Below are positions 8,216-37,566 of a stretch of DNA of 64,000 nt, in pieces. The stretch covers positions 164,710 to 228,709 of the forward strand of contig CAZMLK010000001.1 in NCBI GenBank assembly GCA_964567265.1, written 5' to 3'. A model generated the notes under the pieces. That model worked only from the letters and a program-made list of their open reading frames with translations, was not told the DNA's origin and ran no database searches. The stretch's first letter is position 1. Every line of letters starts with the position of its first letter. This stretch comes from an uncultured Candidatus Saccharibacteria bacterium (lineage in GTDB: Bacteria > Patescibacteriota > Minisyncoccia > Phycocordibacterales > UBA12088). Both the position numbers and the translations under genes were made by a program.

Positions 8216-8818
8216 ATGGCAACTGCAAAATCGTGGATCATCGTCGGTCTTGGAAATCCCGGAGAGGAATATGCAGAGACGCGCCACAACACCGGACGCA
8301 TCGTCGTCAGCAAGATCGCCGAGTCGTTTGATGGAGGGGAATGGAAGACTGAGAAGATGCTTACGGCAGCGGTCGCTAAGGGAAGCGTCAATGGGAATCC
8401 GGCACGCTTCGTGCTCCCGAATACCTTCATGAACCTATCGGGAAAGTCGGTAAAACCTCTTATTCCTGGCCCCAAAGCCGCTGAGAGGCTCATCGTGGTC
8501 TACGATGACATCGATCTGCCATTCGGCTCCTTGAAGATCTCCTACGGGCGGAGCAGCGGCGGCCACAACGGGCTTGAATCTGTCATCAAGTCCTTGAAGA
8601 CCAAGGACTTCGTCCGCATCCGTATCGGCGTCGCGCCGACAACACCGGGCGGCAAGCTCAAGAAGCCCTCAGGCGAAGAGGCAGTCGTGAAATTCTTGCT
8701 CGGTGAATTCAAGAAGCCGGAGCTGGAGACACTGAAAAAAATAATCAAGCGCGTGGAGGAAGCGGTAACGATTATCGTGACCGAAAGCCGCGAGAAGGCG
8801 ATGAGCGTGACTCGCTAA
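8216..8818 (+). CDS. pth: Peptidyl-tRNA hydrolase
   Basis: IVGLGNPGEEYAETRHNTG N-terminus, 200 aa. Confidence 0.9.
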   Translation: MATAKSWIIVGLGNPGEEYAETRHNTGRIVVSKIAESFDGGEWKTEKMLTAAVAKGSVNGNPARFVLPNTFMNLSGKSVKPLIPGPKAAERLIVVYDDIDLPFGSLKISYGRSSGGHNGLESVIKSLKTKDFVRIRIGVAPTTPGGKLKKPSGEEAVVKFLLGEFKKPELETLKKIIKRVEEAVTIIVTESREKAMSVTR

Positions 8819-15934: not shown

Positions 15935-16471
15935 ATGTTTGCAAAACCAGATACGATTCTCGGAGGCTTTGGAGTGGAACCTGGATGGCTGGTTGCCGAC
16001 CTGGGAAGCGGTGCTGGTGCATATACACTTCCTTTGTCAGATCTCGTCGGCCCATCTGGTCGCGTGTATGCGATCGATGTCCAGCCGGAACTCCTCCGTA
16101 AGGTCAAGGACCTGAGCGACAAGAACAGGCGGGAGAATATCGACATCGTGAGGGGTAATATCGAAGAAATCGGAGGGACGCATCTCAAGGATGCGTCCGT
16201 GGATGCTGTGGTGGTCTCGAATGTCTTCTTCCAAATCGAAGAAAAGGGAAGTTTCATCGCCGAAATAAAGCGCATCCTCAAGCCGCGGGGCCGCCTGCTC
16301 CTTTCGGATTGGGAAGATTCCTTTAACCACATGGGACCGCATCCCGATGCAGTCGTTCCGGAGGCAAAAGCGGAAAAGCTGTTCGGGCAGGCAGGCTTCA
16401 GGGTGGAACGTACCATTCCAGCAGGAGAACATCATTACGCCATTGTATTTAGATATATCCCCGAATCATGA
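15935..16471 (+). CDS. Class I SAM-dependent methyltransferase
   Basis: VADLGSGAGAYTLPL motif I, D/E-loop, about 178 aa; start trimmed to MFAKPD. Confidence 0.7.
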   Translation: MFAKPDTILGGFGVEPGWLVADLGSGAGAYTLPLSDLVGPSGRVYAIDVQPELLRKVKDLSDKNRRENIDIVRGNIEEIGGTHLKDASVDAVVVSNVFFQIEEKGSFIAEIKRILKPRGRLLLSDWEDSFNHMGPHPDAVVPEAKAEKLFGQAGFRVERTIPAGEHHYAIVFRYIPES

Positions 16472-17766
16472 AAGGCCCCAATTTCTTTCAAATAGGCATT
16501 CTGGTCATCTTTACGTTGTTCATCTTCGGGGCAGTGCTGTATTTTGCCCTCTTCAAGGGTGCAGGCGCCTTTGGTTCGGCAGGAAGCGTCGTGATCTGGG
16601 GAACGCTTCCTGCGAACATCATGATCGAGCCTTTGGCCACCATCAAGAAGAAGGAAAGCGGCCTTGATAGCGTTTCGTATGTCGAAAAAGATCCGCGTAC
16701 GTATGAGAATGATATCCTCGAAGCGCTCGCGTCGGGTAAGGGTCCGGACCTCATCCTCCTTTCGGAAGACCGGGTAATGGCCAACCTCGACCGTATCACC
16801 CTCATCCCGTATACCTCGCTCTCCGAGCGCACCTTCAAGGATACATTCATAGAAGAAGCCGACCTCCTCTTGTTCCCGAAGGGAATCGTGGGCCTCCCGT
16901 TCTACTTCGACCCGCTGGTGATGTACTGGAATCGCGACATGTTCGCGACCGCAGGTCTCGCGACACCACCTGAGTATTGGGACGAATTCTTCACCATCAT
17001 CCCGAAGCTGACCAAGCGGGATAACAACCAGAACATCCTCAGGAGCGGGCTCGCGTTCGGTGAATATGACAACGTGACCCACGCGAAGGATATCCTCGCG
17101 CTCCTCATGCTCCAGGCGGGGACGCCGATCGTAGTCCGGAATGGTGAAAAACTCTCGCCGAACTTCGAGCTCAATGTGGACGGCGGTAATCCGGATCCGG
17201 GCGCAGCTGCGCTCCGCTTCTATACGGAATTCTCCAATCCGATCAAGAACGTCTACTCATGGCACCGTGCCCTTCCGGAATCCAAGCAGATGTTCCTTTC
17301 CGGGGATCTTGCTATCTATTTCGGCTTTGCCAGCGAATATCGTGATTTGAAGCGTGCCAATCCGAACCTCAACTTCGACCTCAAGGTGGTCCCGCAGTCG
17401 AGGACTGCGAAGCGTCGGACGTCATATGGCACCTTGACCTCGTTCATGATCCCGAAGCTTGCAAAGAATCCGAGCGGTGCCTATATCGCGGAAACCATCC
17501 TGGTACGGAGCGATCCCTTGAAGATCTTCGGAGAGCGGACCGAGATGCCGCCGGTACGACGTGACCTCCTAGCGACCCCGCAGACTGATGCCTACAAGAG
17601 CGTGACCTACAGTTCAGCGATCATCGCCCGATCATGGCTTGATCCGGATTCCGACAAGAGCGATGCGGTGTTCCAGACCATGGTCAACCAGATAACTGCC
17701 GGACGGAAGGAGCTCTCAAAGGCGCTCACAGAGGCGGAAAGCGAGCTCGCAAATCTATTCCACTAG
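16468..17766 (+). CDS. Membrane-anchored extracellular solute-binding-protein-like protein
   Basis: N-terminal TM, YWNRDMF...PPEYWDEF pattern typical of family-1 ABC substrate-binding proteins; ATGA overlap with upstream gene; no permease nearby. Confidence 0.5.
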   Translation: MKGPNFFQIGILVIFTLFIFGAVLYFALFKGAGAFGSAGSVVIWGTLPANIMIEPLATIKKKESGLDSVSYVEKDPRTYENDILEALASGKGPDLILLSEDRVMANLDRITLIPYTSLSERTFKDTFIEEADLLLFPKGIVGLPFYFDPLVMYWNRDMFATAGLATPPEYWDEFFTIIPKLTKRDNNQNILRSGLAFGEYDNVTHAKDILALLMLQAGTPIVVRNGEKLSPNFELNVDGGNPDPGAAALRFYTEFSNPIKNVYSWHRALPESKQMFLSGDLAIYFGFASEYRDLKRANPNLNFDLKVVPQSRTAKRRTSYGTLTSFMIPKLAKNPSGAYIAETILVRSDPLKIFGERTEMPPVRRDLLATPQTDAYKSVTYSSAIIARSWLDPDSDKSDAVFQTMVNQITAGRKELSKALTEAESELANLFH

Positions 17767-17775
17767 TTTTATACT

Positions 17776-18144
17776 ATGTTCATGAACAGACTCCTCCAGC
17801 CGTGCGCACGCTTCCTGTCGGCGCTCGCAGTGCTCGCTCTCCCGATGGTCGCATTCGGCCAGACTCGATTCGCGAATCCTATTGCAGCCGGATCGCTCAC
17901 TGAGCTCCTTACAAAGGTCCTCGATGCCGCCATCTTGATCCTTTTCCCGTTCATCGTGCTCTACATCGTCTATGCGGGCTTCAAGCTCGTGACCGCTCAG
18001 GGAAATTCAACAAAGATAGAAGAAGCAAAGCGGCAGATCATGTACGCGCTTATCGGCGCAGTCATCGTCCTTGCCGCCGGCGCGATCTCGATCGCGATCA
18101 AGACGACGGTTGAGAATATCCGCGGCGAACCGTTCCCTACATGA
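17776..18144 (+). CDS. Pilin-like small membrane protein, paralog A (TrbC/VirB2-type architecture)
   Basis: Signal peptide plus two TM helices; first of six tandem paralogs. Confidence 0.55.
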   Translation: MFMNRLLQPCARFLSALAVLALPMVAFGQTRFANPIAAGSLTELLTKVLDAAILILFPFIVLYIVYAGFKLVTAQGNSTKIEEAKRQIMYALIGAVIVLAAGAISIAIKTTVENIRGEPFPT

Positions 18145-18479
18145 TGACCGTACGGAAACAAAAAGCAATGGCAGGAAAGCGTGTGGGAGTAATAGCAATC
18201 GGCATGCTTTCATTGGCGTTCCTGCCGGAGATTGCCCTCGCGGCAAGCTTCAAGCAATTCGTGTCGATCCTGATCGGACTCGTTGAGACGGCGACCTTTC
18301 TTCTTGGGACCATCCTCCTCCTTGTCTTTTTCTGGGGAATCGCGCGCTTTATTTTCAATGCAAGCAACTCCCAGAAACACGCTGAGGACAAGACCTTCCT
18401 TTTCTGGAGCGTGCTCTGCCTCGCGGTCATGTTCTCGGTATGGGGCCTTGTCGAGATCTTGCGAGTAACGCTCATATAA
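18141..18479 (+). CDS. Pilin-like small membrane protein, paralog B
   Basis: Signal peptide, FFWGIARFIF and WSVLCLAVMFSVWGL helices. Confidence 0.55.
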   Translation: MMTVRKQKAMAGKRVGVIAIGMLSLAFLPEIALAASFKQFVSILIGLVETATFLLGTILLLVFFWGIARFIFNASNSQKHAEDKTFLFWSVLCLAVMFSVWGLVEILRVTLI

Positions 18480-18491
18480 TTACTCTGGGAC

Positions 18492-18890
18492 ATGAGACAC
18501 TTCACTCCATTCCTTTCCATCGTGTTGCTCGCGTTCGCCGTTTCGGTGCCTTTGCCGACGCATGCGGCCGCTACACTCTTCGATCTCATCGCAGGCGCAA
18601 CCGGAGTCGTACAGGCATTCACCGGGGTGGCATTCCTCTCAGCGCTCCTCTTCTTCTTCTGGGGTCTGGCGAAATATCTCTATGGCGGTACTGATGATGC
18701 GAAAGTGTCCGGAAGGAGCCTCATGCTCTGGGGAACCATAGCGCTCACAGTCGCCGCAACCGTCGGAGGGCTCGTCGCAGTCTTCCAGGTGACCTTCGAT
18801 ATCGACGGTGTTGATCCTGGCGGGACGCATACCTGCGTGCCGGAACTCGGCGGGGCGCCGACGAAGACTTGCCGAGACAGTGATCCATAG
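18492..18890 (+). CDS. Pilin-like small membrane protein, paralog C
   Basis: FFFWGLAKYLYGG and LWGTIALTVAATV motifs shared with neighbours. Confidence 0.6.
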   Translation: MRHFTPFLSIVLLAFAVSVPLPTHAAATLFDLIAGATGVVQAFTGVAFLSALLFFFWGLAKYLYGGTDDAKVSGRSLMLWGTIALTVAATVGGLVAVFQVTFDIDGVDPGGTHTCVPELGGAPTKTCRDSDP

Positions 18891-18987
18891 CTCTGTGGAG
18901 AAGTAGGTGGACACAGAGGCGTTCCACGCTATGATTACAGGGAAATTTCTTCAGCCTCCGACTTTATCAGGTCACAGAACTCATCCA

Positions 18988-19380
18988 ATGAATGTCATGT
19001 CAAAAATCGGAACGGAAATGCACGTCACCCGCGTACGGGTTGCGGCATTTTTCTCAGTGCTCGGGGCATCCACTTTGCCGCTTCTTGCCTACGCACAGGA
19101 TGACGCGTTCGAAACCGCGAACAGTGTCGCCGACAGCCTCATCGAGATTGTCAACGCGCTTATCATCGCAGCATTCGGGCTCATCCTTCTCGCCTTCTTC
19201 TGGGGCCTTGCAAAGTACATCTTTGGCGGTGCCGACGAGAAATCGAACGGAAAGAGCCTCATGTTCTGGGGAGTCATCGCTCTTGCCGTCGCCGCATCGG
19301 TATGGGGCATTAAGTCGGTGTTGGTCACGACCTTCGGCATCGGGACCGATACCAGCGTGACCATACCATTCGCAGTCTAA
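18988..19380 (+). CDS. Pilin-like small membrane protein, paralog D
   Basis: AFFWGLAKYIFGG and MFWGVIALAVAASVWGI motifs; start trimmed to MNVMSK. Confidence 0.6.
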   Translation: MNVMSKIGTEMHVTRVRVAAFFSVLGASTLPLLAYAQDDAFETANSVADSLIEIVNALIIAAFGLILLAFFWGLAKYIFGGADEKSNGKSLMFWGVIALAVAASVWGIKSVLVTTFGIGTDTSVTIPFAV

Positions 19381-19478
19381 AATACCTCTATCCACAGCCC
19401 CGGCTTGAATTATGGCTTGGTGGAGGTATCATGAAGGGTAAGTCGGTCGGAATTAATACTTTTATTTACTAGTAGAAT

Positions 19479-19844
19479 TTGATTATGAAGAAATTTGTCA
19501 CTGCAGCAACCGCAATCGGCGCATTCGCACCTGCATTTGCTTTCGCTGCACCGCTTGCCACAGGATTCGGTCCTACACTGCAGGCTACTGTCGACACGAT
19601 TGGTGCCATCGTCAACGCCCTTATCCCGATCGCCTTTGCAGCAGCGCTCCTCTTCTTCTTCTGGGGTCTCGCCAAGTACCTCCTTGGAGATGCAACCGAG
19701 CACGAGAAGGGCCGCAACCTCATGATCTGGGGCGTGATCGCGCTTGCGATCATGGCTTCCGTGTGGGGAATCGCCGCTGTCCTCCGCACGACCTTCGGCG
19801 TCGGAGGAGATACCACTGCGACTGTGCCGAAAGTCACTCCGTAA
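19479..19844 (+). CDS. Pilin-like small membrane protein, paralog E
   Basis: FFFWGLAKYLLGD and MIWGVIALAIMASVWGI motifs; own -10-like TAGAAT upstream. Confidence 0.6.
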   Translation: MIMKKFVTAATAIGAFAPAFAFAAPLATGFGPTLQATVDTIGAIVNALIPIAFAAALLFFFWGLAKYLLGDATEHEKGRNLMIWGVIALAIMASVWGIAAVLRTTFGVGGDTTATVPKVTP

Positions 19845-19913
19845 TCTGGCCTGCCTGTCGTAAGCTAGACCTCAGCATCTCTCCATTGCCAGTGCACTCG
19901 GAAGATCTGGCGA

Positions 19914-19952
19914 ACCGGGCCAACGATGCGAATCGTTGGCCCGGTTTCGGGT
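19914..19952 (+). terminator. Intra-array terminator/attenuator hairpin
   Basis: ccgggccaacgat-gcgaa-tcgttggcccgg then tttcgg. Confidence 0.5.
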
Positions 19953-19972
19953 CTGGAGGCAGCCTCCTGTAC

Positions 19973-20320
19973 ATGAAAAAAGCAATCCTTACCGTCCTCA
20001 CGTTTTCTGCGATTCCTGGAATCGCGCTTGCCGCATTTCCGGATACGATGGAAGAATTCGTGAACAGGGTCAATGATGCCATCATCAACCCAATCCTGGC
20101 CCTCATCTTTGTGTCTGCGCTCCTTTATTTCTTCTGGGGCGGCATCCAGTTCCTCCTCAATGCGGACAATGCGACCGCACGCACCGATGGCAAGAACCAC
20201 ATGTTCTGGGGAATCATCGGCATGTTCGTCATGGTCTCGGTCTATGCACTCCTCGCGGTGCTCCTCGGGACCTTCGAGGTCGCGCCGCCCGCTGGTCTTC
20301 CGATCGACAGCTGGATATAG
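19973..20320 (+). CDS. Pilin-like small membrane protein, paralog F
   Basis: MKKAILTVLTF signal peptide, YFFWGGIQFLLNAD and MFWGIIGMFVMVSVYAL; GGAGG RBS. Confidence 0.6.
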   Translation: MKKAILTVLTFSAIPGIALAAFPDTMEEFVNRVNDAIINPILALIFVSALLYFFWGGIQFLLNADNATARTDGKNHMFWGIIGMFVMVSVYALLAVLLGTFEVAPPAGLPIDSWI

Positions 20321-22245: not shown

Positions 22246-23624
22246 CAGTTCCCATCTCCTTGGGTTGGGGGCGCCGCGGCAGGTGCCGCGTCGTCTGTTT
22301 TCGCCTTGCCTTGCCTGCGGATGCCGGCAAGGTTCGCAGTCTGCGACTCTCGTTGGCCAGCCCCGATGAACATGTCGACATTGGACGCATTCCTTGCAGC
22401 TTCAACGCCTGCGCGATTCCGCAGGTATTCTTCCGCGAACTGGCCGTGCTCTTCGATTCCCGCAAGCTCTTCTTCAATGATCTTACGGCGGCCCTTCGCT
22501 TCACCCGTGAGTTCTTCGGCGGTACGCTTGCCCTTCTGTTTGCCTTCGAACTCTGCAGCGAGGAAGCCTTCGATATCTTTGGCGCGCGCCGGATCAAGAT
22601 CTGGATCGCGGACATCGACATCCTTCACTACCTCGAACCCGATTGATTGGATGAACTGCTCTCTCGGAACACGCACGATGGACGCATTCGGATCACGTTT
22701 CTTCCGTGCAGCGAGGTCCGCGTCAATGACATCCTGTTCGACGCCCATGAGGCCGTCTCGGATGAATTGCGCGAGCGCACGCTTGTCTTCCGGCGACATT
22801 TCTCTGCCGGCATAGACTTGCCTGATGTCAGCTCCCTGGGCATATTCGCGTACGAGGTTTTGGACCCTGACCGCGATCTGCTGCTCCCACGCCCTGGCTT
22901 CCCAGAACGCGAGTACCGGGTTCACGCACCGAAGCGTGAGCACGATATGGAACCGGACATCATAACCTTGGAGCGTCGGTACCCCGGCACTGATGACGTG
23001 CAGCTGAAACTGCGCGTGGACCACCTTGCCGGTACGATCCTTCTCAGGTTCGTAGATCTCCACTTGCTTGCCGTCCCGTACGACGATGTCGTAGCGGACG
23101 CGGCGGAAGTCACGCGTCTCAACAGCCCACCCAAGCGGTGATAGCACGAGATGGGTGCCGGTCACTGCTTGTACGACGCGACGTGCGGCGTACCAGGGGC
23201 TGAACCACCCCCACTTACTGTAGAGGGGTCCATGGACCGGGTGCCGTGTCTTGTCGTGGTTGATGTGCCAATCCGCAACGCTCTTCTTGCTCGGCACTCG
23301 ACCCTTGTCGAGCTGCCATTCAAAGCAGGATTCAGACGCGGCGTCGATGAGATACGCGCTCACGTTTCCGCCGTAGGTCAGGCATACCACCGCATCCGGT
23401 TGCACCTCAACGAAGAGGTACTGCTCCGGAAGGGGAGGCTTGCCCTGGGCGATACGCGCAGCGTTCGTCTTGTCGATATTCGCGTCGTAATGCAGATTCT
23501 TATGCCAGAAGAATGTCGAGGCAGCTGCACCGACGGCGAGCGCGTAGATGGACGCGTACGATGCGAGTCCAGTGATGAAGAGACCCTGCCACATTCGATT
23601 TTTCCTTAAGTTGTCGAGGAACAC
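22245..23624 (-). CDS. SPFH/band-7 domain membrane protein (flotillin/stomatin-like)
   Basis: N-terminal TM, SPFH-like core, long charged coiled-coil C-terminus; 459 aa. Confidence 0.6.
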   Translation of the reverse strand: MFLDNLRKNRMWQGLFITGLASYASIYALAVGAAASTFFWHKNLHYDANIDKTNAARIAQGKPPLPEQYLFVEVQPDAVVCLTYGGNVSAYLIDAASESCFEWQLDKGRVPSKKSVADWHINHDKTRHPVHGPLYSKWGWFSPWYAARRVVQAVTGTHLVLSPLGWAVETRDFRRVRYDIVVRDGKQVEIYEPEKDRTGKVVHAQFQLHVISAGVPTLQGYDVRFHIVLTLRCVNPVLAFWEARAWEQQIAVRVQNLVREYAQGADIRQVYAGREMSPEDKRALAQFIRDGLMGVEQDVIDADLAARKKRDPNASIVRVPREQFIQSIGFEVVKDVDVRDPDLDPARAKDIEGFLAAEFEGKQKGKRTAEELTGEAKGRRKIIEEELAGIEEHGQFAEEYLRNRAGVEAARNASNVDMFIGAGQRESQTANLAGIRRQGKAKTDDAAPAAAPPTQGDGN

Positions 23625-30453: not shown

Positions 30454-31332
30454 ATGGATATTGAGCACCTCAACAGGACGCAGATTCTTCTGCTGACGCT
30501 TCTTGTAAGCTTCATGTCTTCTGTTGTTACGGGCATCGTGACCGTACGTCTCCTCGATCAAGCGCCGGGCCCTGTCACGCGCACCATCAATCAGGTCGTC
30601 GAGCACACCGTCGAGCGGCTCATTCCCGCCGAGCCCGGAAAATCCGATACCAAGGAAACGACCGTGGTCGTGCGCGAGGAAGACCTCATTACTGGCGCGA
30701 TCGATAAGAATGCGAAATCATTGGTACGCATCTACTCGGTCGCTGAAGGTACCGCGAGCACGACAGATGTTTCAAAATCGGGAACCTTCCGCGGCATCGG
30801 CGTCGTGGTGTCGAGTGACGGCATCATCGCGGTCCCCGATCAAGTCGCGGTCAAAGGTCGGACGTATATCGTCGAGACCGGGAACGGCGTGAAGACATCG
30901 GCGACGATCCTCGTCGAAGGACGCGGAGATGTCGCCCTTCTCAAGATGCAGCTTGCAACCTCGACTCCTTCGCTTTCCGTTGCAAGTCTCGGGAACGCGT
31001 CGTCCCTCAAGCTCGGGCAGACCGTGATCGCGCTCGGCGGCGATGAACGCACGAATGTCGGCGTAGGCATCGTCTCTGCAGTCACACCAGGCAAAGAAAC
31101 AGGCACGATCGATTCGATCGACGCATCCGTTTCGGGAACGCCTGCAAGCGGAAGCCCGCTCGTGACCGTCGCAGGGGATGTCGTCGGACTCTATATAACG
31201 GAATCAAAACTGTTCGCACCGCTGTCTGGAAGCATCGTGGCCGCGCTCAAGACCGCGCCGCCAAAAAAGACCTCTGAGGCAGATCCGAAGACCTCGACCG
31301 CCGCTGCCGCAAACGCTGTTACTCCCCAGTAA
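30454..31332 (+). CDS. Trypsin-like serine protease (S1C/HtrA-like, no PDZ)
   Basis: N-terminal TM anchor, catalytic-triad context (GDVALLK, GTPASGSPL resembling GNSGGPL). Confidence 0.7.
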   Translation: MDIEHLNRTQILLLTLLVSFMSSVVTGIVTVRLLDQAPGPVTRTINQVVEHTVERLIPAEPGKSDTKETTVVVREEDLITGAIDKNAKSLVRIYSVAEGTASTTDVSKSGTFRGIGVVVSSDGIIAVPDQVAVKGRTYIVETGNGVKTSATILVEGRGDVALLKMQLATSTPSLSVASLGNASSLKLGQTVIALGGDERTNVGVGIVSAVTPGKETGTIDSIDASVSGTPASGSPLVTVAGDVVGLYITESKLFAPLSGSIVAALKTAPPKKTSEADPKTSTAAAANAVTPQ

Positions 31333-31344
31333 CCAGAAACGCAT

Positions 31345-34044
31345 ATGACACCATTCAACAATTTCACAACCAAAGCTAAGGATGCCGTCCGGAAGGCGCA
31401 TGAGCTCGCGATCGAACGCGGGCAGAACCATGTGAATCCGCTCCATCTCTTGACCGCGCTCGTCCTCCAGGAGGAGAGCATGGTCTTTTCAGTACTCGAA
31501 CGGTTGGATGTCGATGCGGTCCTGCTTACCGACACGCTCCTCGAGGCGCTTGAAGCGCCTGAGGGATCTTCGGTACTCTCGCCGTCGTACCAGCTCTACC
31601 TCACGCCCGAGCTCGCGCAGGTCCTCGAGAATTCCGCGCGCATCGCTTCGGCGCTCGGCGACCAGTTCGTCTCGACCGAGCACATCTTCATCGCCATCCT
31701 CGACAACCCCGGACCGGCGCGCGAGATCATCGCCCGCTTCCGCTTCGATCGCAATTCCGTTATCCGTGTCATCCAGGAACTGAAGGCGAACAATGTCACC
31801 GATGTCTCGCAGCCGAAGAAGTTCAAGGCGCTCGCGAAGTACACGCGGAATCTGACCGCGCTCGCCGCGGAGAACAAGCTCGACCCAGTGATCGGCCGCG
31901 ACGTCGAGATCAACCGCGTCATCCAGATTCTCTCGCGCCGCACGAAGAACAACCCGATCCTCATCGGCGCTGCAGGCGTGGGGAAGACTGCGATCGCCGA
32001 AGGGCTCGCGACACGCATCGCGACCGGCGACGTCCCGGAATCGCTCCGCGGGAAGGACTTGGTCGCGCTCGACCTCGGCATGCTCATTGCGGGTACCAAG
32101 TACCGCGGCGAGTTCGAAGAGCGCCTCAAGAACATTATGAAAGAAGTCGAGCGCGCTGATGGAAAAGTCATCCTCTTCATCGACGAGATGCACACGATCG
32201 TGGGCGCCGGCGCTGCTGAGGGCGCGATGGACGCATCGAACATGCTGAAGCCAGCGCTCTCGCGTGGCGAGCTCCGCGTCATCGGTGCAACGACTCTCAA
32301 CGAATACCAGAAGCACATCGAGAAGGACGCGGCGCTCACGCGCCGCTTCCAGCCGGTCCATGTGGAAGAGCCGACCCTTGAAGACGCGGTCGCCATCCTC
32401 CGCGGCCTTCGCGAGAAGTACGAGGTGTACCACGGGGTGCGTATCACCGACGATGCGATCGTCGCTGCAGTGAATCTCTCCGCTCGATACATCCCTGACC
32501 GATTCCTCCCGGACAAGGCGATCGACCTCATCGACGAGGCCGCATCCGGACTCCGCATTTCACTCGAGAACAAGCCGCCTGCACTCGAGGAAGCGCAGCG
32601 GAAGATCATGCGCCTCGAAGTCGAGAAGGAAGCGCTCTCGAAGGATCTCGACATCCACGAAGGACGCGACACGAAGGCGCGCATCAAGCAGATCGAGAAG
32701 GACATCGCCGATCTTCGCGAGAAGACGGGCGACCTCGAGCTCCGCTGGAACAACGAGAAGGAAGTACTCTCCGATATAAAGGCGCTGAAGAAGCAGCTTG
32801 AGACGCTCCGCAATGAAGCTGAGAACGCGGAGGCGGTCGCAGACCTCTCACGCGCAGCGGAAGTCCGCTACGGCAAGATTCCTGCGCTTGAGAAGGATCT
32901 CGATGCGAAGACCAAGCGCTTGAAGCGCTTCCAGCAGACGCGCCGCGTCCTCAAGGAAGAAATTATGGAAGAGGACATCGCCTCCGTGGTCTCACGCTGG
33001 ACCGGCGTTCCTGTCGCGCGCATGCTCGAGGAAGAAGCCGAGAAGCTCTCGCGCATGGAAGAAGTCCTCAAGAGCCGAATCGTCGGCCAGGATGACGCCG
33101 TCCTCAAGGTTGCATCTGCCGTGAAGCGCTCGCGTGCGGGCATCAGTGACCCGAACCGTCCGATCGGCTCGTTCCTGTTCCTCGGCCCTACTGGCGTTGG
33201 AAAGACCGAGCTCTCGAAGGCGCTCGCGGAATTCATGTTCGACAATGACAAGGCCTTGATCCGCGTCGACATGTCCGAATACATGGAGCGGCACTCAGTC
33301 GCGAAGTTGATCGGCGCGCCTCCAGGATACGTCGGCTTCGAGGAGGGTGGCTCGCTCACGGAAATCGTGCGCCACCGCCCATACTCAGTGCTCCTCTTCG
33401 ACGAGATCGAGAAGGCGCACCCAGAAGTCTTCAACATCCTCCTCCAGGTCCTCGACAACGGCCATTTGACCGACTCAAAGGGACGGAGCGTGAACTTCAA
33501 GAACACCATCATCATCCTCACCTCGAACATCGGATCGCAGTACATCGACCGCATGTCGCAGATCGGATTCGCGAAGGACAGCGGCAACGAGGCGGTCGCG
33601 TACGAAGTTACCAAGGACAAGGTCATGGAAAGCCTCAAGGATTACTTCCGTCCGGAATTCCTGAATCGTCTCGACGAGATCCTCATCTTCAACATGCTCT
33701 CGAAGGAGGCGATCAAGGATATCGTCGGCATGCAGGTGAAGCTCGTCATGGAGCGCCTCAAGCAGAAGAACATCGCGCTCGAGCTCACCGAAGCGGTGTA
33801 CGAGCTTCTCGCGAAGGAGGGCTACGATCCGCACTACGGCGCCCGCCCGCTCAAGCGGCTCATCCAGAACAAGATCCTGACCCCGGTCGCGTCGATGATG
33901 ATCTCCGAAGGCCTCCTCCATGGCGGCACGGTCCTCGTCGATATCAAGAATGGCGTCTTCACCTTCGACGGCAAGAAAAGCCGCAAATCGGCGAAACGGA
34001 GTTCTATCAGAGCTTCCAAAAATCTCGAGGAGGTGGTAGCGTAG
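31345..34044 (+). CDS. clpB: Chaperone ClpB (AAA+ disaggregase, two NBDs plus middle coiled-coil)
   Basis: Clp_N repeats, [15 protein letters not shown] Walker A, FIDEMHT Walker B, long M-domain, second GPTGVGKTE, 899 aa. Confidence 0.95.
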
Positions 34045-34076
34045 CAAAAGTCTCCTCTTCTAAAGGAGGGGAACAT

Positions 34077-34159
34077 GCGTCGGTGGCGGAGTGGTCAATC
34101 GCACTTGGCTGTAAACCAAGCGGCTTATGCCTACGGGGGTTCGAATCCCTCCCGGCGCA
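34077..34159 (+). tRNA. tRNA-Tyr (anticodon GTA)
   Basis: Long variable arm, anticodon loop CTGTAAA, GGTTCGAATCC T-arm; 3' end embedded in long palindrome. Confidence 0.85.
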
Positions 34160-34205
34160 CAAATAGAAAAATCCCCGAAAGGGGATTTTTCTATTTGTGC
34201 GCCGG
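34152..34205. terminator. Long perfect palindrome/bidirectional terminator incorporating tRNA-Tyr 3' end
   Basis: ccggcgcacaaatagaaaaatcccc-gaaa-ggggatttttctatttgtgcgccgg. Confidence 0.7.
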
Positions 34206-34386
34206 AGCAAAGCGCTGAGCGCTTTGCGTGAGGGATTCGAAGACCTTTTCGATGTTTGTGAGGAGCTTTGCTCTGAACAAACCGAAAAGGTGTACTGCGC
34301 CTGTAAGGCGAGAATCTCGAATCCTCCAAAAATCTATCCCCACACAAAACACCCAATCGAAGCCACTTTCCCGCTATACTTTCCCT

Positions 34387-35508
34387 ATGCACCGCATACG
34401 GCCTCTCCATCGGTTCTTGATCGGGAGTCTTTTCCTGTTTCTCACTATTTTGCCGATTACGATGCTCTCGGCACAAAACCTCATCCCTTGCAGCGGGCCC
34501 GACTGCGATCTCTGCAGCTTCGTCCAGCTCGGGCAGAACATCATCAACTTCCTCGTCTACTTCTCGACCCTGCTTGCGACGGTGCTCTTCTGCTATGCCG
34601 GATTCAAGATGCTGACCGGAGCCGATAACCCAGGCGCGATCACCAAAGCAAAAAAACTCTTTTGGACAGTCCTCTGGGGCTTCGCGCTTCTCCTGGCGGC
34701 ATGGCTCATCCTCGATACTGCGATGCGTCTCCTCTTTGAGGATTCGGAGCTTCGCGCCACCGAATTCGGACGTCCGTGGAACGAGATCCTCTGCCAGTTC
34801 CAGAACGGCGCGCCGGCGCAGAATGTCTTCGTCACATTGACGGCGACGCCGAATCCGATAGCCGTGCCGGGCGGCAACATTACGCTTACCTGGACATCAT
34901 TCGGGGCAATAGCCTGTGCTGCGGGCGGGGGCTGGGCGGGCACGAAGGCGCTCAACGGGTCGGAAGTGGTCGCAATCACAACAACTACGGCGTTCGCGCT
35001 CTCCTGCGTCAATGCTGATGGGGATAGCGCAACAGTCACTGTGAGCGTGGTGGTTGGTACCGGGCCTGGGCCTGGAAGCTGTAGCATCACGGAGGATGGT
35101 CCCTGCGGTACCATCGCGCTCGCGGACATGTTCGGTCCAATCGCATCCCAGGCGTCTCAAATCTGCAGCGCGGAAAGCGCTGGTGATCCTGCGAGCGAAA
35201 GCAAGACCGACATCCTCATTGCGTCCGGACTTCCATTCTCGATCGGTCTTTTCCAGATCAACATGACGCAGCACAATCTGACGGGTCCCGCATGCAGGGC
35301 GCTCAATGGCGGGAACCCGCTCAACTGCATCAGCGCGTTTTCTGGGAAGAATTACACCGCCACGATCGTGGATATGCCGCTCTACGAGCAGTGCCGCGCC
35401 GCCCTCAAGAATCCGGATTGCAATGCTGAAACGGCGGCAGGTATCGTGACCACAGACGGCGGCAGCTGGCGCCAATGGTCCACGGCCAAGAAATGTAAAC
35501 TTCCGTAG
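34387..35508 (+). CDS. Composite secreted protein: pilin-like N-domain + Ig-like region + lytic transglycosylase (SLT-like) domain
   Basis: Signal peptide, CSGPDCDLCS, two TM helices (paralog of 36180-36611), then C-terminal AESAGDPASES...GLFQIN SLT/GEWL signature. Confidence 0.6.
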   Translation: MHRIRPLHRFLIGSLFLFLTILPITMLSAQNLIPCSGPDCDLCSFVQLGQNIINFLVYFSTLLATVLFCYAGFKMLTGADNPGAITKAKKLFWTVLWGFALLLAAWLILDTAMRLLFEDSELRATEFGRPWNEILCQFQNGAPAQNVFVTLTATPNPIAVPGGNITLTWTSFGAIACAAGGGWAGTKALNGSEVVAITTTTAFALSCVNADGDSATVTVSVVVGTGPGPGSCSITEDGPCGTIALADMFGPIASQASQICSAESAGDPASESKTDILIASGLPFSIGLFQINMTQHNLTGPACRALNGGNPLNCISAFSGKNYTATIVDMPLYEQCRAALKNPDCNAETAAGIVTTDGGSWRQWSTAKKCKLP

Positions 35509-35540
35509 GAAACCATGCGATACTATTCGAGAACGACCCT

Positions 35541-36122
35541 ATGAAACTCATCACCAAAATCGTCGTCATATTCCTGATTGTCGCTCTCGGTGTTTTTTTC
35601 GCCCTCTACTTTGTGTATAAGCGACCGAATGGGGGAGACGGGACGACGCCAGGCGCAACGGCAGGGCAGACGACGGCAGGCGGCCCGGGATCGTGGCAAA
35701 CAACCGGCATGTCTACCGGGACGACCGGAGCCATGGGTACCAGCACGGATGGAAAGCGCGTGGTGGCGGGCGCGGGCGGCGGACAGGTCCTCGTGAAGGA
35801 TTTCCTGGTTGGGAAAACTCCCGAGCAGAGTAAGGCCGTCGGTACGTACTATCATCTTCGCGAGATTGCCACGAATACTCCGTTCCAAGTAATCTTCACC
35901 GAGCGCGATAGCTTCTTCCAGGTAGCGCTTACGGCATCGCCGCTCGGTATCGTGAGGAAGGATGCAGAAGCATTCCTCCTTAATGAGCTTGGCATCGACG
36001 AGCCGACCGCGTGTACGCTCAAATATTCTGTGAACACGACATACGACCAGAGCGAGCTGTATTCGGGAAGGAATTTGAAATTCAGCTTCTGTCCTGACGC
36101 AGTGGGGCTTCCGGAAATTTAA
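35541..36122 (+). CDS. Membrane-anchored secreted hypothetical protein with Gly/Thr-rich linker
   Basis: N-terminal TM/signal, low-complexity G/T-rich region, 193 aa. Confidence 0.45.
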   Translation: MKLITKIVVIFLIVALGVFFALYFVYKRPNGGDGTTPGATAGQTTAGGPGSWQTTGMSTGTTGAMGTSTDGKRVVAGAGGGQVLVKDFLVGKTPEQSKAVGTYYHLREIATNTPFQVIFTERDSFFQVALTASPLGIVRKDAEAFLLNELGIDEPTACTLKYSVNTTYDQSELYSGRNLKFSFCPDAVGLPEI

Positions 36123-36179
36123 TCGCGGCCGCAAGCGTTTGTGTCCGAATCGGACCCTTAAAAAGTATACAGAGCAGCA

Positions 36180-36611
36180 ATGAAACGAATCTTTCCAATC
36201 ATCGTCGCGATCGCCGTATTCTGGATCGCTGTGCCGGCTCCCGCGGTACAGGCACAAATGAACCTGATACCGTGCAGCGGGCCTGATTGCGATCTCTGCA
36301 GCCTCGTCCAGCTCGGGCAGAACATCATCAATTTCTTGGTATACTTCTCGACTCTCCTCGCGACCATCCTCTTCGCATACGCTGGTTTCAAGATGCTGAC
36401 CTCTGGTGATAATCCAGCAGGGATCACGACCGCCAAGAAGCTGTTCTGGAGCGTCTTGTGGGGCTTCGCGCTCCTCCTTGCCGCTTGGCTCATCCTCGAT
36501 ACCATCATGCGGGTCCTCTTCGAGAATTCCGAGCTTCGGGCGACGGAATACGGCCGTCCGTGGAACGAGATCCTGTGCGAATTTGAGAGCGATGCGCCGC
36601 CGGCTCCCTAG
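36180..36611 (+). CDS. Pilin-like small membrane protein (stand-alone paralog of N-domain of 34387-35508)
   Basis: About 90% aa identity to residues 25-165 of the neighbouring fusion gene, including CSGPDCDLCS and both helices. Confidence 0.6.
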   Translation: MKRIFPIIVAIAVFWIAVPAPAVQAQMNLIPCSGPDCDLCSLVQLGQNIINFLVYFSTLLATILFAYAGFKMLTSGDNPAGITTAKKLFWSVLWGFALLLAAWLILDTIMRVLFENSELRATEYGRPWNEILCEFESDAPPAP

Positions 36612-36668: not shown

Positions 36669-36824
36669 ATGTCACAGGATAACTTGGTAAAGCTGAAGAA
36701 CGCCGAGACCGGCGAGATGTACTGGTCGCGGAAGAACCGCAAGAAAGTCGAGAAAAAGCTCGCGCTCAAGAAGTATTCTCCGAAGCTTCGGAAGCACGTG
36801 GTTTTCAAGGAGGTCAAGAAGTAA
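36669..36824 (+). CDS. rpmG: 50S ribosomal protein L33
   Basis: 51-aa ORF MSQDNLVKLKNAETGEMYWSRKNRKKVEKKLALKKYSPKLRKHVVFKEVKK matches the L33 pattern (..LKKY.P..RKHV..KE.K); below ORF-track size cutoff. Confidence 0.8.
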   Translation: MSQDNLVKLKNAETGEMYWSRKNRKKVEKKLALKKYSPKLRKHVVFKEVKK

Positions 36825-36827
36825 AAG

Positions 36828-36878
36828 CCAATCAAATCGCCGCCCCCTCCAGGGGGCGGCGATTTGATTGGGTACAGC
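36828..36878 (+). terminator. Strong 20-bp hairpin after rpmG
   Basis: ccaatcaaatcgccgccccc-tcca-gggggcggcgatttgattgg. Confidence 0.5.
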
Positions 36879-36945: not shown

Positions 36946-37016
36946 GGGCCTATAGTTTAGTGGTAAAATTCTGGTCTCCAAAACCAGCGTCGCAGGTTCG
37001 AGTCCTGCTGGGCCCG
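36946..37016 (+). tRNA. tRNA-Trp (anticodon CCA)
   Basis: Anticodon loop CTCCAAA, G73 discriminator, GGTTCGAGTCC T-arm. Confidence 0.85.
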
Positions 37017-37212
37017 CTACGAACGAAGTGAGTAAGACGGGTCCAGAGGAAGCTCCGGGGGAGCTTCCGTCAGGACTCGAAAAGCTTGCGAGATTTTTTA
37101 GCGAACTCGTTCGCCTAAAAAATCCGCAAGGTGTACTGAAGCTGTAAGCTTCGAGATTTTGAATACTTCTGGCAGAATTAGTAATGACACTTGATCAAAT
37201 CAATCAAAAATT

Positions 37213-37566
37213 ATGGAACTAAAAGAATTTATAAAAAAAGTTCTTGCTGATGCGGTTGAAGCTGTTGACGAGTCTAGTTCGAATGCCTCCAGAGAGATTT
37301 CGCTGGCCTCTCGACCCGATAGGAGGACTATTGAATTCGATGTTGCAGTCTCTGCGGAAGAGACCACTACAACAGGTGGCAAGGCTGGGGTACGAGTTCT
37401 TTCCTTTATGGAGGCAGGAGCCGATGTTGGTACTCAGTCAAAAAACTCAACAGTAAGTCGAATCACTTTTGGCGTAGATGTAAACCAGGCAACTAAAGTA
37501 GAGAGGGCCAGACAGGAACAGGCATTTCAAAGTCATGCCCGATTGAGCAACGATGATTATCGATAG
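37213..37566 (+). CDS. Hypothetical protein (117 aa) in low-GC islet next to tRNA-Trp
   Basis: About 45% GC versus about 60% surroundings; followed by terminator 37608-37648. Confidence 0.5.
   Translation: MELKEFIKKVLADAVEAVDESSSNASREISLASRPDRRTIEFDVAVSAEETTTTGGKAGVRVLSFMEAGADVGTQSKNSTVSRITFGVDVNQATKVERARQEQAFQSHARLSNDDYR

What the first reader, a model, noticed from the sequence alone, without database searches (positions are those of the whole stretch)
34387..36611. Pilin-like domain fused to a lytic-transglycosylase domain, with a nearly identical stand-alone pilin paralog 0.7 kb downstream
The 34387-35508 protein starts with the same pilin-like module as the array above (signal peptide, CSGPDCDLCS, two TM helices). 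It continues into a beta-rich segment (VTLTATPNPIAVPGGNITLTWT...SATVTVSVV) and a C-terminal region carrying the SLT/goose-lysozyme catalytic signature E-S-x-G-D-P-x-S...G-L-F-Q-I-N. Gene 36180-36611 is about 90% identical at the amino-acid level (about 85% nt) to the N-terminal module alone, indicating a recent duplication. A VirB2-like anchor covalently linked to a VirB1-like peptidoglycan lyase is an unusual composite. It could mark a minimal cell-wall-penetrating surface apparatus.
Basis: partly seen in the sequence, partly recalled or inferred. Interest (0 to 1): 0.8.

Follow-up and report, generated by a model that had tools for sequence, protein, structure and literature searches.

The report
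Pilin-anchored cell-wall lysozyme of Patescibacteria
This is a real gene in which a secretion-system pilin-like membrane hairpin is fused to a lysozyme-like cell-wall-cutting domain. It belongs to a large, uncharacterised family that in related ultrasmall (CPR/Patescibacteria) bacteria sits inside type IV secretion operons, and it probably supplies the "missing" wall-opening enzyme of that system.

Summary

The fusion is not a rarity. The C-terminal domain has 1213 cluster representatives, nearly always at the C-terminus of 270-450 aa proteins, and most proteins from 44 related genomes carry PF18895.

New context:
- The gene is followed by a conserved ~150-200 aa bitopic protein in 44 of 49 related loci.
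- It is often followed by a second pilin fused to a peptidoglycan peptidase (M15, NlpC/P60). In this window that second gene is pilin-only.
- A VirB4-like ATPase lies upstream in 13 of 28 loci. No such gene lies in this window.
- Pilin modules of the two genes evolve in concert within genomes.

Best reading: a pilin-anchored VirB1-equivalent of the Patescibacteria T4SS. Whether it acts on its own wall or the host's is unresolved. I found no paper describing this. It is a new variant of a known kind, of moderate to high interest.

The parts
34387..35508 (+). Fusion gene, 373 aa: signal peptide, pilin hairpin, Ig-like insert and lysozyme-like domain
   Evidence: ORF list. Pfam PF18895 and PF18896, both above the gathering score. 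AF2 model.
34387..34476 (+). Signal peptide (residues 1-30, ...TMLSA|QN)
   Evidence: Hydrophobic segment starting at residue 6. Helix 5-29 in the model. N-termini of homologs align here. The cleavage site is inferred.
34477..34815 (+). VirB2-family pilin module (residues 31-143). It has an N-terminal CxxxxCxxC motif, two TM helices (42-77 and 82-117) joined by a K-rich loop, and a conserved Cys136.
   Evidence: PF18895 at 27.3 bits. Helical hairpin at pLDDT about 90. 85% identical to the mature module of 36180-36611.
34825..35061 (+). Ig-like beta-sandwich insert (residues ~147-225), specific to this lineage
   Evidence: Strands 164-221, pLDDT 50-70. Absent from the closest homologs P0002 and P0003. 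Homologous to tandem repeats in P0005, P0007, P0008 and P0012. No Pfam hit.
35068..35505 (+). Lysozyme-like catalytic domain (residues 228-373, Pfam SLT_3) with 8 Cys
35173..35175 (+). Codon of the predicted catalytic Glu263
   Evidence: Translation. Invariant in 44 genome-derived family members and in alignments A2 and A6.
35541..36122 (+). Conserved partner gene, 193 aa. It has an N-terminal TM helix, a Gly/Thr-rich linker, and a ~95-aa ectodomain with invariant Glu143, Cys158 and Cys184.
   Evidence: Alignment A7. A homolog lies directly downstream of the SLT_3 gene in 44 of 49 loci. No Pfam or PDB sequence match.
36180..36611 (+). Stand-alone pilin paralog, 143 aa. It occupies the position that in relatives holds a pilin fused to a peptidoglycan peptidase.
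   Evidence: PF18895 at 28.3 bits. BLASTP E = 2e-65 to the fusion. Positional equivalents in L001, L002, L025 and others carry M15 or NlpC/P60 domains.
17776..20320 (+). Array of six PF18895-family pilin genes (distant paralogs, 16-26% identical to the fusion's module)
   Evidence: Pfam. HMM search finds six ORFs. Alignment A8.
16468..17766 (+). Membrane-anchored SBP_bac_8/SBP_bac_1-like protein directly upstream of the pilin array
   Evidence: Pfam. Homologs sit directly upstream of pilin arrays that include the fusion and partner genes in L028, L029, L030, L032, L040 and L046.

Best explanation
The gene encodes an extracytoplasmic peptidoglycan glycosidase (muramidase or lytic transglycosylase). 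It is tethered to the cell membrane, and possibly to a pilin polymer, by a VirB2-family pilin hairpin.

Inferred topology: the signal peptide is cleaved and the two helices form a hairpin with the K-rich loop in the cytoplasm. Both ends lie outside. The C-terminal linker, Ig-like spacer and disulfide-rich lysozyme-like domain are therefore displayed on the outer face.

The protein belongs to a conserved cassette: pilin-glycosidase, a small bitopic partner protein, and a second pilin that in relatives carries a peptidoglycan peptidase. In many Patescibacteria this cassette is part of the VirB4/PrgI/VirB6-type T4SS operon.

I therefore read it as the VirB1-equivalent (wall-opening enzyme) of the Patescibacteria T4SS/pilin system. 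It would be addressed to the machine by sharing the pilin module. The partner protein most likely regulates or inhibits the enzyme.

Shown: domain content, fold, conserved catalytic Glu, gene neighbourhoods.
Inferred: topology, enzymatic activity, T4SS coupling in this particular genome, and role of the partner.
For: Domain and fold:
- Both Pfam domains score above the gathering cut-off.
- Glu263, Ser285, Gly287, Leu288, Gln290 and Asn292 are invariant in 44 genomes.
- There are eight Cys in the catalytic domain and four in the two outside-facing ends of the hairpin, consistent with an extracytoplasmic location (sequence).

Family:
- The domain has 1213 cluster representatives and is almost always C-terminal in 270-450 aa proteins.
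- 33 of 44 genome-derived members carry PF18895.

Genomic context in relatives:
- A VirB4-like ATPase lies 2-7 kb upstream on the same strand in 13 of 28 loci with enough flank.
- The L018 operon reads TrbL/VirB6 (weak), PrgI, VirB4, surface protein, fusion, partner.
- The fusion is embedded in pilin arrays in L028-L030, L032, L040 and L046.
- The second pilin gene carries Peptidase_M15_4, VanY or NlpC/P60. This gives the same enzyme set (glycosidase plus peptidase) as monoderm VirB1 proteins.

Literature:
- The essential Southlakia genes SEML1_0006 and SEML1_0007, next to virB4, carry lysozyme-like plus Cys-peptidase and M15B domains.
- All known Gram-positive VirB1 homologs are membrane-anchored (PMC12857230).
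- Most Patescibacteria with VirB2 lack a recognised VirB1 (PMC12102498).
Against: - In this window the cassette lies between clpB/tRNA-Tyr and rpmG/tRNA-Trp/miaA. No VirB4, VirB6 or PrgI was found in the 64 kb. T4SS coupling here rests on relatives.
- PF18895 is hit only just above threshold (27.3 vs 26.6 bits), and TrbC/VirB2 proper (PF04956) is not hit for this protein.
- No T4SS pilus has been seen in these organisms, so 'pilin' may mean only a membrane anchor.
- No activity data exist. The Asp52 equivalent of c-type lysozyme is an invariant Ser, and the third SLT motif is absent, so the chemistry is unknown.
- Foldseek with the whole model found nothing significant.
Confidence: 0.6

Rival explanations
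1. Host-directed weapon. The pilin module incorporates the enzyme into, or onto the tip of, a T4SS filament. The glycosidase, with the sister pilin-peptidase in relatives, digests the wall of the bacterial host at the contact site. The small partner protein is an immunity or inhibitor protein protecting the producer's own wall.
For: - A membrane-anchored small protein follows the enzyme gene almost obligatorily, in 44 of 49 loci, as in effector-immunity pairs.
- One constant N-terminal module carries different C-terminal wall-degrading domains: SLT_3, M15, NlpC/P60.
- The organisms have an epibiotic lifestyle, and the T4SS and pilin array are essential in Southlakia (PMC10633639).
- PF18895 pilins are among the most highly expressed genes of parasitic Paceibacteria (PMC10936435).
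Against: - The partner protein is conserved rather than co-diversifying, and it follows only the glycosidase, not the peptidases.
- The glycosidase domain is conserved, not polymorphic.
- Some Paceibacteria parasitise methanogenic archaea. From my own knowledge, such archaea lack murein.
- There is no evidence that these pilins polymerise.
Confidence: 0.2
2. Housekeeping autolysin. This would be a membrane-tethered wall-remodelling enzyme for growth and division. The pilin-like hairpin would be merely a convenient two-helix anchor with no link to a T4SS.
For: - The neighbourhood in this window is housekeeping: clpB, tRNAs, rpmG, miaA, with ftsZ/ftsA elsewhere.
- The same clpB-linked position is kept in L001, L010, L014 and L020.
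- The PF18895 score is marginal.
Against: - The gene lies in T4SS operons in 13 of 28 loci and inside pilin arrays in others.
- The pilin module is shared with a neighbouring pilin and kept similar by concerted evolution. A generic anchor would not be expected to show this.
Confidence: 0.13
3. Catalytically inert adhesin. The lysozyme-like domain binds but does not cut glycan, as proposed for some inactive VirB1 homologs of Gram-positive conjugation systems.
For: - The FEMS review cites inactive VirB1 homologs used as adhesins (PMC12857230).
- This copy has an Ig-like spacer typical of adhesins.
Against: The catalytic Glu and the surrounding motif are invariant across 44 divergent genomes. This argues for retained catalysis.
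Confidence: 0.05
4. Phage-derived lysis module, such as a holin-like or signal-anchor endolysin.
For: A two-TM N-terminus plus a lysozyme-like C-terminus superficially resembles membrane-tethered endolysins (own knowledge).
Against: - No phage genes are nearby.
- The search of predicted viral structures gave only weak hits, none at E <= 0.001.
- The chromosomal and T4SS synteny is conserved.
Confidence: 0.02

Closest known systems
Membrane-anchored VirB1-class hydrolases of monoderm T4SSs (PrgK of pCF10, TraG of pIP501, CwlT of ICEBs1)
   Same: They are extracytoplasmic, membrane-tethered peptidoglycan hydrolases encoded in VirB4-type (MPF-FATA) clusters. They combine a lysozyme/SLT-type glycosidase with a peptidase activity (PMC12102498, PMC12857230).
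   Different: - The anchor here is a signal peptide plus a two-helix PF18895 pilin hairpin rather than a single N-terminal TM.
- The glycosidase and peptidase are on two separate pilin-fused polypeptides.
- In this window the peptidase partner has no enzyme domain.
- The glycosidase is SLT_3, not PF01464.
- The window copy is not next to virB4.
VirB2-like pilin arrays of Patescibacteria (Southlakia SEML1_0014-0019; 441 arrays reported by Quinonero-Coronel et al. 2025)
   Same: They belong to the same Pfam family (PF18895), occur in tandem arrays and are chromosomal. Such an array is present in this window at 17.8-20.3 kb.
   Different: - The described arrays consist of small, plain pilins averaging 25% identity, with a maximum of 54%.
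- Here a pilin carries about 230 extra residues with an enzyme.
- Its neighbouring paralog is 85% identical over the mature module.
Southlakia epibionticum SEML1_0006 (two lysozyme-like domains plus a Cys peptidase) and SEML1_0007 (M15B-like), next to virB4
   Same: They provide the same enzymatic repertoire (glycosidase, Cys peptidase, M15 peptidase) associated with a Patescibacteria T4SS, and they are essential for epibiotic growth.
   Different: They are not fused to pilin modules. The lysozyme families differ (PF18013, PF01832).
C-type lysozyme (GH22; 1gd6) and family-1 lytic transglycosylases (GH23; Slt, MltC, MltE, EtgA)
   Same: - The catalytic Glu sits at the end of the first long helix, followed by the G-[LI]-[FLM]-Q-I-N strand.
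- Like c-type lysozyme, the domain is rich in disulfides and has the W-x-x-W-S...C tail.
   Different: - Sequence identity is only 16-20%.
- Pfam SLT (PF01464) is not hit.
- There is no AYNxG-type third motif.
- The position of lysozyme Asp52 is an invariant Ser.
- There is an invariant Asp275 of unknown role.
Brucella SagA autolysin with its inhibitor PhiA (T4SS-associated)
   Same: This is a T4SS-linked peptidoglycan hydrolase paired with a dedicated protein inhibitor (abstract of PMC8334348, seen). It is a possible analogy for the SLT_3-partner gene pair.
   Different: No sequence relationship was shown. The partner here is a bitopic membrane protein of unknown fold. Inhibition is purely hypothetical.
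FlgJ (flagellar rod cap fused to a muramidase) and 'evolved' VgrG/PAAR proteins of T6SS (own knowledge, not tested)
   Same: The design principle is the same: a structural subunit of a trans-envelope machine is covalently joined to a wall-degrading enzyme.
   Different: The protein families and machines are unrelated.

Membership tests
Pfam PF18895 T4SS_pilin (VirB2-like pilins of monoderms/CPR) | Profile score at or above the gathering threshold | tested here: met
   27.3 bits vs 26.6 for the fusion, and 28.3 bits for the paralog. The margin is narrow.
Pfam PF18895 T4SS_pilin (VirB2-like pilins of monoderms/CPR) | Signal peptide followed by a two-helix hydrophobic hairpin with a short charged loop | tested here: met
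   Hydrophobic segments at residues 6, 51 and 90. Helices 42-77 and 82-117 at pLDDT about 90.
Pfam PF18895 T4SS_pilin (VirB2-like pilins of monoderms/CPR) | Encoded with VirB4-type T4SS genes | tested here: inconclusive
   No T4SS gene lies in the 64-kb window. Orthologous fusions lie downstream of VirB4 in 13 of 28 loci.
Pfam PF18895 T4SS_pilin (VirB2-like pilins of monoderms/CPR) | Polymerises into a pilus | not testable with these tools
   No experimental data. No T4SS pilus is reported for Patescibacteria in the papers read.
TrbC/VirB2 proper (PF04956) | Profile match | tested here: not met
   No hit for the fusion or its paralog at E <= 0.1. There are only sub-threshold hits for array member 17776-18144 (23.7 vs 27.9 bits) and for the second gene of L001.
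Pfam PF18896 SLT_3 / lysozyme-like superfamily | Profile score at or above the gathering threshold | tested here: met
   32.3 bits vs 27.
Pfam PF18896 SLT_3 / lysozyme-like superfamily | Lysozyme-like fold | tested here: met
   [not shown]
Pfam PF18896 SLT_3 / lysozyme-like superfamily | Conserved catalytic glutamate | tested here: met
   Glu263 is invariant in A3 (44 sequences), A2 and A6.
Pfam PF18896 SLT_3 / lysozyme-like superfamily | Cleaves peptidoglycan glycan strands | not testable with these tools
   Needs a biochemical assay.
Family-1 lytic transglycosylases (Pfam SLT PF01464, GH23) | PF01464 profile match and the three motifs ES / GLMQ / AYNxG | tested here: not met
   No PF01464 hit for this protein, and only 3 of 44 relatives hit at E < 0.01. 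The ES and GLFQ motifs are present, the third is absent, and there is a 12-13-residue insertion between the first two relative to P0011.
C-type lysozyme (GH22) | Glu35/Asp52 catalytic pair | tested here: inconclusive
   [not shown]
VirB1-type T4SS wall hydrolase (functional class) | Muralytic domain encoded within a T4SS cluster and required for machine assembly | tested here: inconclusive
   Domain: met. Cluster membership: met in relatives but not in this window. Requirement for assembly: not testable.

The most novel reading that the evidence does not exclude
Patescibacteria build 'armed pilins'. One pilin module is kept identical between neighbouring genes by gene conversion and fused to different wall-degrading enzymes (glycosidase, M15 or NlpC/P60 peptidase). 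These would co-assemble into the T4SS filament and form an enzymatic drill that opens the envelope of the host cell. A dedicated bitopic partner protein would keep the glycosidase silent on the producer's own wall. This would give the essential but functionally unexplained Patescibacteria T4SS a concrete mechanism.
Probability: 0.2. Interest if true: 0.85.

Novelty: new variant of a known kind. Interest (0 to 1): 0.6.

Why it matters
The T4SS and its VirB2-like pilin array are essential in the only genetically tractable Patescibacterium, yet the system's role is described as completely unknown (PMC10633639, PMC11665869). A 2025 survey concluded that most Patescibacteria with VirB2 lack a VirB1 (PMC12102498).

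The family documented here offers a candidate answer. The wall-cutting enzymes are present but hidden as C-terminal extensions of pilins, within a conserved cassette that can be tested directly. It also provides three further leads:
- an unannotated, near-obligate partner protein family;
- a clear case of concerted evolution of a delivery/anchor module;
- a distinctive lysozyme-like domain intermediate between GH22 and GH23.

For this particular window the finding is one (Ig-decorated, peptidase-less) member of that family, so the value lies in the family-level pattern.

Tried and rejected
- The afdb50 library was unavailable.
- The search for related loci with the full-length alignment A1 failed because it is too divergent. 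The C-terminal alignment A2 worked.
- The sequence-profile search of PDB with the SLT_3 alignment gave only E 0.49 to a c-type lysozyme.
- The partner protein had no meaningful hit in PDB sequences or Pfam. NCBIfam gave nothing for it, and only sub-threshold 'pilin-like conjugal transfer protein' hits for the pilins.
- tblastn of the VirB4-like protein, the large upstream surface proteins and the C-terminal domain of L001's second gene found nothing in the window.
- Literature searches for PF18896 / SLT_3 found no relevant paper. Only the 2025 T4SS survey mentions PF18895. Further searches found no description of a pilin-hydrolase fusion.
- I rejected 'recent duplication' (dS 1.1) and 'assembly or frameshift artefact' (the architecture recurs in hundreds of clusters).
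- Organism labels on several TPA_asm records (Saccharibacteria, Bdellovibrionales, Gammaproteobacteria, archaeon) look unreliable and were not used for taxonomy.
Full report
WHAT IS THERE

The window is a housekeeping stretch of a small, 57% GC genome.
- Its genes include ftsZ, ftsA, hisS, lepB, gyrA, IF-2, a cysteine desulfurase, two clpB-type genes, miaA, parB, relA/spoT, topA, dprA and serS, plus eight tRNAs.
- Exact look-ups place several of its proteins, including ClpB and the two genes downstream of the fusion, on an NCBI contig of 621,860 nt.
- All relatives of the gene of interest come from Patescibacteria (CPR) assemblies. Many are labelled Parcubacteria, Paceibacterota, Minisyncoccia, Moranbacteria, Doudnabacteria, Gottesmanbacteria or Staskawiczbacteria.

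ORF 34387-35508 (+) encodes 373 aa.
- Pfam finds T4SS_pilin (PF18895, residues 46-110, 27.3 bits vs a 26.6 cut-off) and SLT_3 'lysozyme-like domain' (PF18896, residues 259-366, 32.3 bits vs 27).
- An AlphaFold model built with 39 homologs (mean pLDDT 80) shows four elements:
  - a signal-peptide helix (5-29);
  - a long helical hairpin (42-77 and 82-117, pLDDT about 90);
  - a poorly determined linker and beta-sandwich (strands 164-221, pLDDT 50-70);
  - a very confident C-terminal domain (residues 230-373, pLDDT above 93).
- The beta-sandwich is an insert absent from the nearest homologs P0002 and P0003. It is related to a ~90-aa repeat found in tandem in many large surface proteins.

THE C-TERMINAL DOMAIN

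Conservation:
- Glu263 (codon 35173-35175) is invariant in 44 full-length family members from different genomes. So are Ser285, Gly287, Leu288, Gln290, Asn292, Cys336, Trp364 and Cys370.
- The motif A-E-S...T-D...S-I-G-L-F-Q-I-N and the tail W-x-x-W-S...C resemble c-type lysozyme. HMMER aligns both stretches to 3cb7, but only at E 0.49.

Differences from the two closest enzyme families:
- By motif register, the position of lysozyme Asp52 is an invariant Ser.
- The third motif of family-1 lytic transglycosylases is missing.
- Pfam SLT (PF01464) is not hit.

The fold and catalytic Glu are therefore established. Whether the enzyme is a hydrolase or a lytic transglycosylase is not.

THE PARALOG

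Gene 36180-36611 encodes a 143-aa stand-alone PF18895 protein.
- It aligns to the first 143 residues of the fusion at 73% identity, E = 2e-65.
- Over the mature module the identity is 83-85%. Nucleotide identity is 78-80%.
- dN = 0.098 and dS = 1.11, so this is an old pair under strong purifying selection, not a recent copy.
- The six pilin genes at 17776-20320 belong to the same Pfam family. They are only 16-26% identical and lack the Cys motif.

THE FUSION IS A LARGE FAMILY

- A profile of the C-terminal domain finds 1213 representatives (E <= 1e-3; 820 at <= 1e-10) among 1.84 billion 50%-identity clusters. The domain almost always lies at the extreme C-terminus of 270-450 aa proteins.
- In the word-indexed database, most hits are ~280-290 aa proteins with precomputed PF18895 and/or PF18896. 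NCBI names some simply 'pilin'.
- In species-representative genomes I obtained 52 loci. Of 44 full-length proteins from them, 33 hit PF18895 and 30 hit PF18896.
- A minority carry the domain on larger, non-pilin proteins of 640-980 aa (L011, L012, L021, L034).
- One relative (P0011) joins the pilin to a classical PF01464 SLT domain.

A CONSERVED CASSETTE

Three genes recur in the related loci.
- The partner protein comes directly downstream of the SLT_3 gene.
  - It is ~150-200 aa, with an N-terminal TM helix, a low-complexity linker and a ~95-aa ectodomain.
  - Glu143, Cys158 and Cys184 are invariant (window gene 35541-36122; alignment A7).
  - An HMM of it finds such a gene within 2.5 kb downstream in 44 of 49 loci with enough sequence. 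This includes loci where the SLT_3 protein is not pilin-fused.
  - It has no Pfam, NCBIfam or PDB-sequence match. A database search returns only unnamed proteins.
- A second pilin-domain gene often follows the partner.
  - In 16 loci examined it is ~245-450 aa (mostly ~290-345 aa). Pfam identifies Peptidase_M15_4 (3), NlpC/P60 (2), VanY (1) and Peptidase_M15 (1) at its C-terminus.
  - Several others show an SxHxxGxxxD motif that I read as M15/LAS-like. This is my inference from the sequences.
  - In a second group of loci the fusion and partner are embedded in arrays of plain pilins.
- The window has the first two genes, then a pilin with no enzyme domain, then rpmG 57 nt later.
- The closest relative, L001 (ClpB 88% identical), keeps the same gene order: cysteine desulfurase, trypsin-like protease, clpB, fusion, partner, second pilin, rpmG, miaA. 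Its second pilin is 312 aa and ends in a putative M15-like domain.
- No remnant of that domain is found in the window.

CONCERTED EVOLUTION

- Within a genome the pilin modules of the two cassette genes are much more alike than positional orthologs are between genomes. Pairs are 85% identical in the window, 65% in L001 and 100% in L002, but only 43% in L004. Window-to-L001 comparisons are 53-55%.
- Across 17 loci, within-locus identity ranges from 27% to 100%. The median between loci is 32%.
- The cassette order predates these lineages. This pattern therefore indicates gene conversion or co-selection for a shared module.

LINK TO THE TYPE IV SECRETION SYSTEM

- A 1108-aa protein directly upstream of the SLT_3 gene in L034 hits P-loop_TraG, AAA_10 and DUF87.
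- phmmer with that protein finds strong homologs (300-1160 bits), all upstream of the SLT_3 gene and on the same strand, in 15 loci. That is 13 of the 28 loci with at least 7 kb of upstream flank.
- In L018 the colinear operon reads as follows:
  - TrbL/VirB6-like (weak hit), an unknown protein, then PrgI (VirB3-like);
  - an unknown protein, then VirB4 (P-loop_TraG, AAA_10, TraC_F_IV, CagE_TrbE_VirB);
  - two unknown proteins, then an 887-aa signal-peptide/C-terminal-TM surface protein;
  - the pilin-SLT_3 fusion, the partner, then a PD40 repeat protein.
- In other lineages (L028-L030, L032, L040, L046) the fusion and partner sit in a pilin array behind an SBP-like gene. That SBP-like gene is homologous to window gene 16468-17766, which also precedes the window's pilin array.
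- In the window and its nearest relatives (L001, L010, L014, L020) the cassette sits 0.3-1.8 kb downstream of clpB, away from any T4SS gene in the sequence available.

LITERATURE

- Patescibacteria T4SSs are MPF-FATA-like and usually lack a relaxase. They include VirB2-like pilins (PF18895/PF04956) and 441 pilin arrays. The authors note that most genomes with VirB2 lack VirB1 and that other glycosidases might fill the role (PMC12102498).
- In Southlakia the T4SS and pilin array are essential (PMC10633639). Its supplementary structure-based annotation shows non-pilin proteins next to virB4: lysozyme-like x2 plus Cys-peptidase (SEML1_0006) and M15B-like (SEML1_0007).
- A 2025 review states that all known Gram-positive VirB1 homologs are membrane-anchored with extracellular enzymatic domains (PMC12857230).
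- PF18895 pilins are among the most highly expressed unknown genes of Paceibacteria parasitising methanogens (PMC10936435).
- I found no paper mentioning PF18896 or a pilin-hydrolase fusion. This is absence within the searchable library only.
- The consecutive Pfam accessions suggest to me that the curators saw the fusion. That is a guess.

INTERPRETATION

The best-supported reading is a pilin-anchored, extracytoplasmic peptidoglycan glycosidase serving as the VirB1-equivalent of the Patescibacteria T4SS/pilin system.
- It has a dedicated partner protein. In most relatives it also has a sister pilin-peptidase. I put confidence at about 0.6.
- The topology is inferred from three features:
  - the positive-inside K-rich loop;
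  - Cys residues on both outside-facing ends of the hairpin;
  - eight Cys in the catalytic domain.
- It is unresolved whether the enzyme opens the producer's own wall, attacks the host's wall from a filament, or both.
- The near-obligate downstream partner and the 'one module, several enzymes' design favour a weapon-like reading.
- The conserved, non-polymorphic nature of both enzyme and partner favours self-wall remodelling. So does the existence of archaeal hosts which, to my knowledge, lack murein.
- The weakest rivals are a pure housekeeping autolysin, an inert adhesin and a phage lysis module.

VERDICT

- The window's gene is one member of a widespread but, as far as I could find, undescribed family. 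This member is decorated with an Ig-like insert and paired with an enzyme-less pilin.
- The family is a new variant of T4SS-associated wall hydrolases.

Noticed in passing
window 16468-17766 (+): This is a membrane-anchored SBP_bac_8/SBP_bac_1-like 'solute-binding' protein with no Pfam-identified ABC-transporter gene among its immediate neighbours. It sits directly upstream of the pilin array. Homologs occupy the same position ahead of pilin arrays in L028, L029, L030, L032, L040 and L046, so it may be a component of the pilin system rather than a transporter part.
   Followed up: partly
window 20389-22245 (-) and 22245-23624 (-): Two adjacent ORFs have no Pfam or NCBIfam hit and lie convergent to the end of the pilin array. 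One is a 618-aa polytopic protein with about 10-11 hydrophobic segments (a VirB6-like candidate?). The other is a 459-aa protein with one N-terminal TM segment. Neither has a homolog in the 52 related loci.
   Followed up: partly
L005, L009, L016, L018, L027, L033, L035, L050 (e.g. L018:6824-9487): A family of 870-1140 aa proteins with a signal peptide and a C-terminal TM anchor has no Pfam domain. They are always encoded directly upstream of the pilin-SLT_3 gene inside the T4SS operon. They may be an adhesin or surface component. No homolog lies in the window.
   Followed up: partly
window 34387 vs 34462: The NCBI record's product for this gene is 348 aa, which fits a start at Met26 and would remove the signal peptide. 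A Logan assembly calls a 407-aa version. Homolog N-termini support the 373-aa form.
   Followed up: partly
window 36828-36871: A 20-bp-stem GC-rich hairpin (13 G-C pairs, 4-nt loop) lies between rpmG (36669-36824) and tRNA-Trp (36946-37017). It was reported as terminator-like on the minus strand.
   Followed up: no
window 37213-37566 (+): A small 117-aa protein gives a sub-threshold hit to Trypco2 (trypsin-co-occurring domain 2; 18.7 vs 24.2 bits). A trypsin-like protease gene lies at 30454-31332.
   Followed up: no
window 34069-34252 vs L001 ~8613-8794: A ~186-nt segment spanning tRNA-Tyr and about 90 nt of downstream flank, between clpB and the fusion gene, matches L001 in inverted orientation (84% identity). 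This suggests a small local inversion between the two genomes.
   Followed up: no
L002 and L003 (same MAG, two contigs): The whole cassette (fusion, partner, pilin-NlpC/P60) appears, apparently identical, on two contigs of one assembly. Within each copy the pilin modules of the two fusion genes are 100% identical over the mature module. This is either a true duplication or assembly redundancy.
   Followed up: no
window 31345-34044 and 52361-54832: There are two ClpB-type AAA+ genes. The first is a full ClpB conserved upstream of the cassette in L001, L010, L014 and L020. The second is an 823-aa protein that matches only the C-terminal part (AAA_2, ClpB_D2-small).
   Followed up: no
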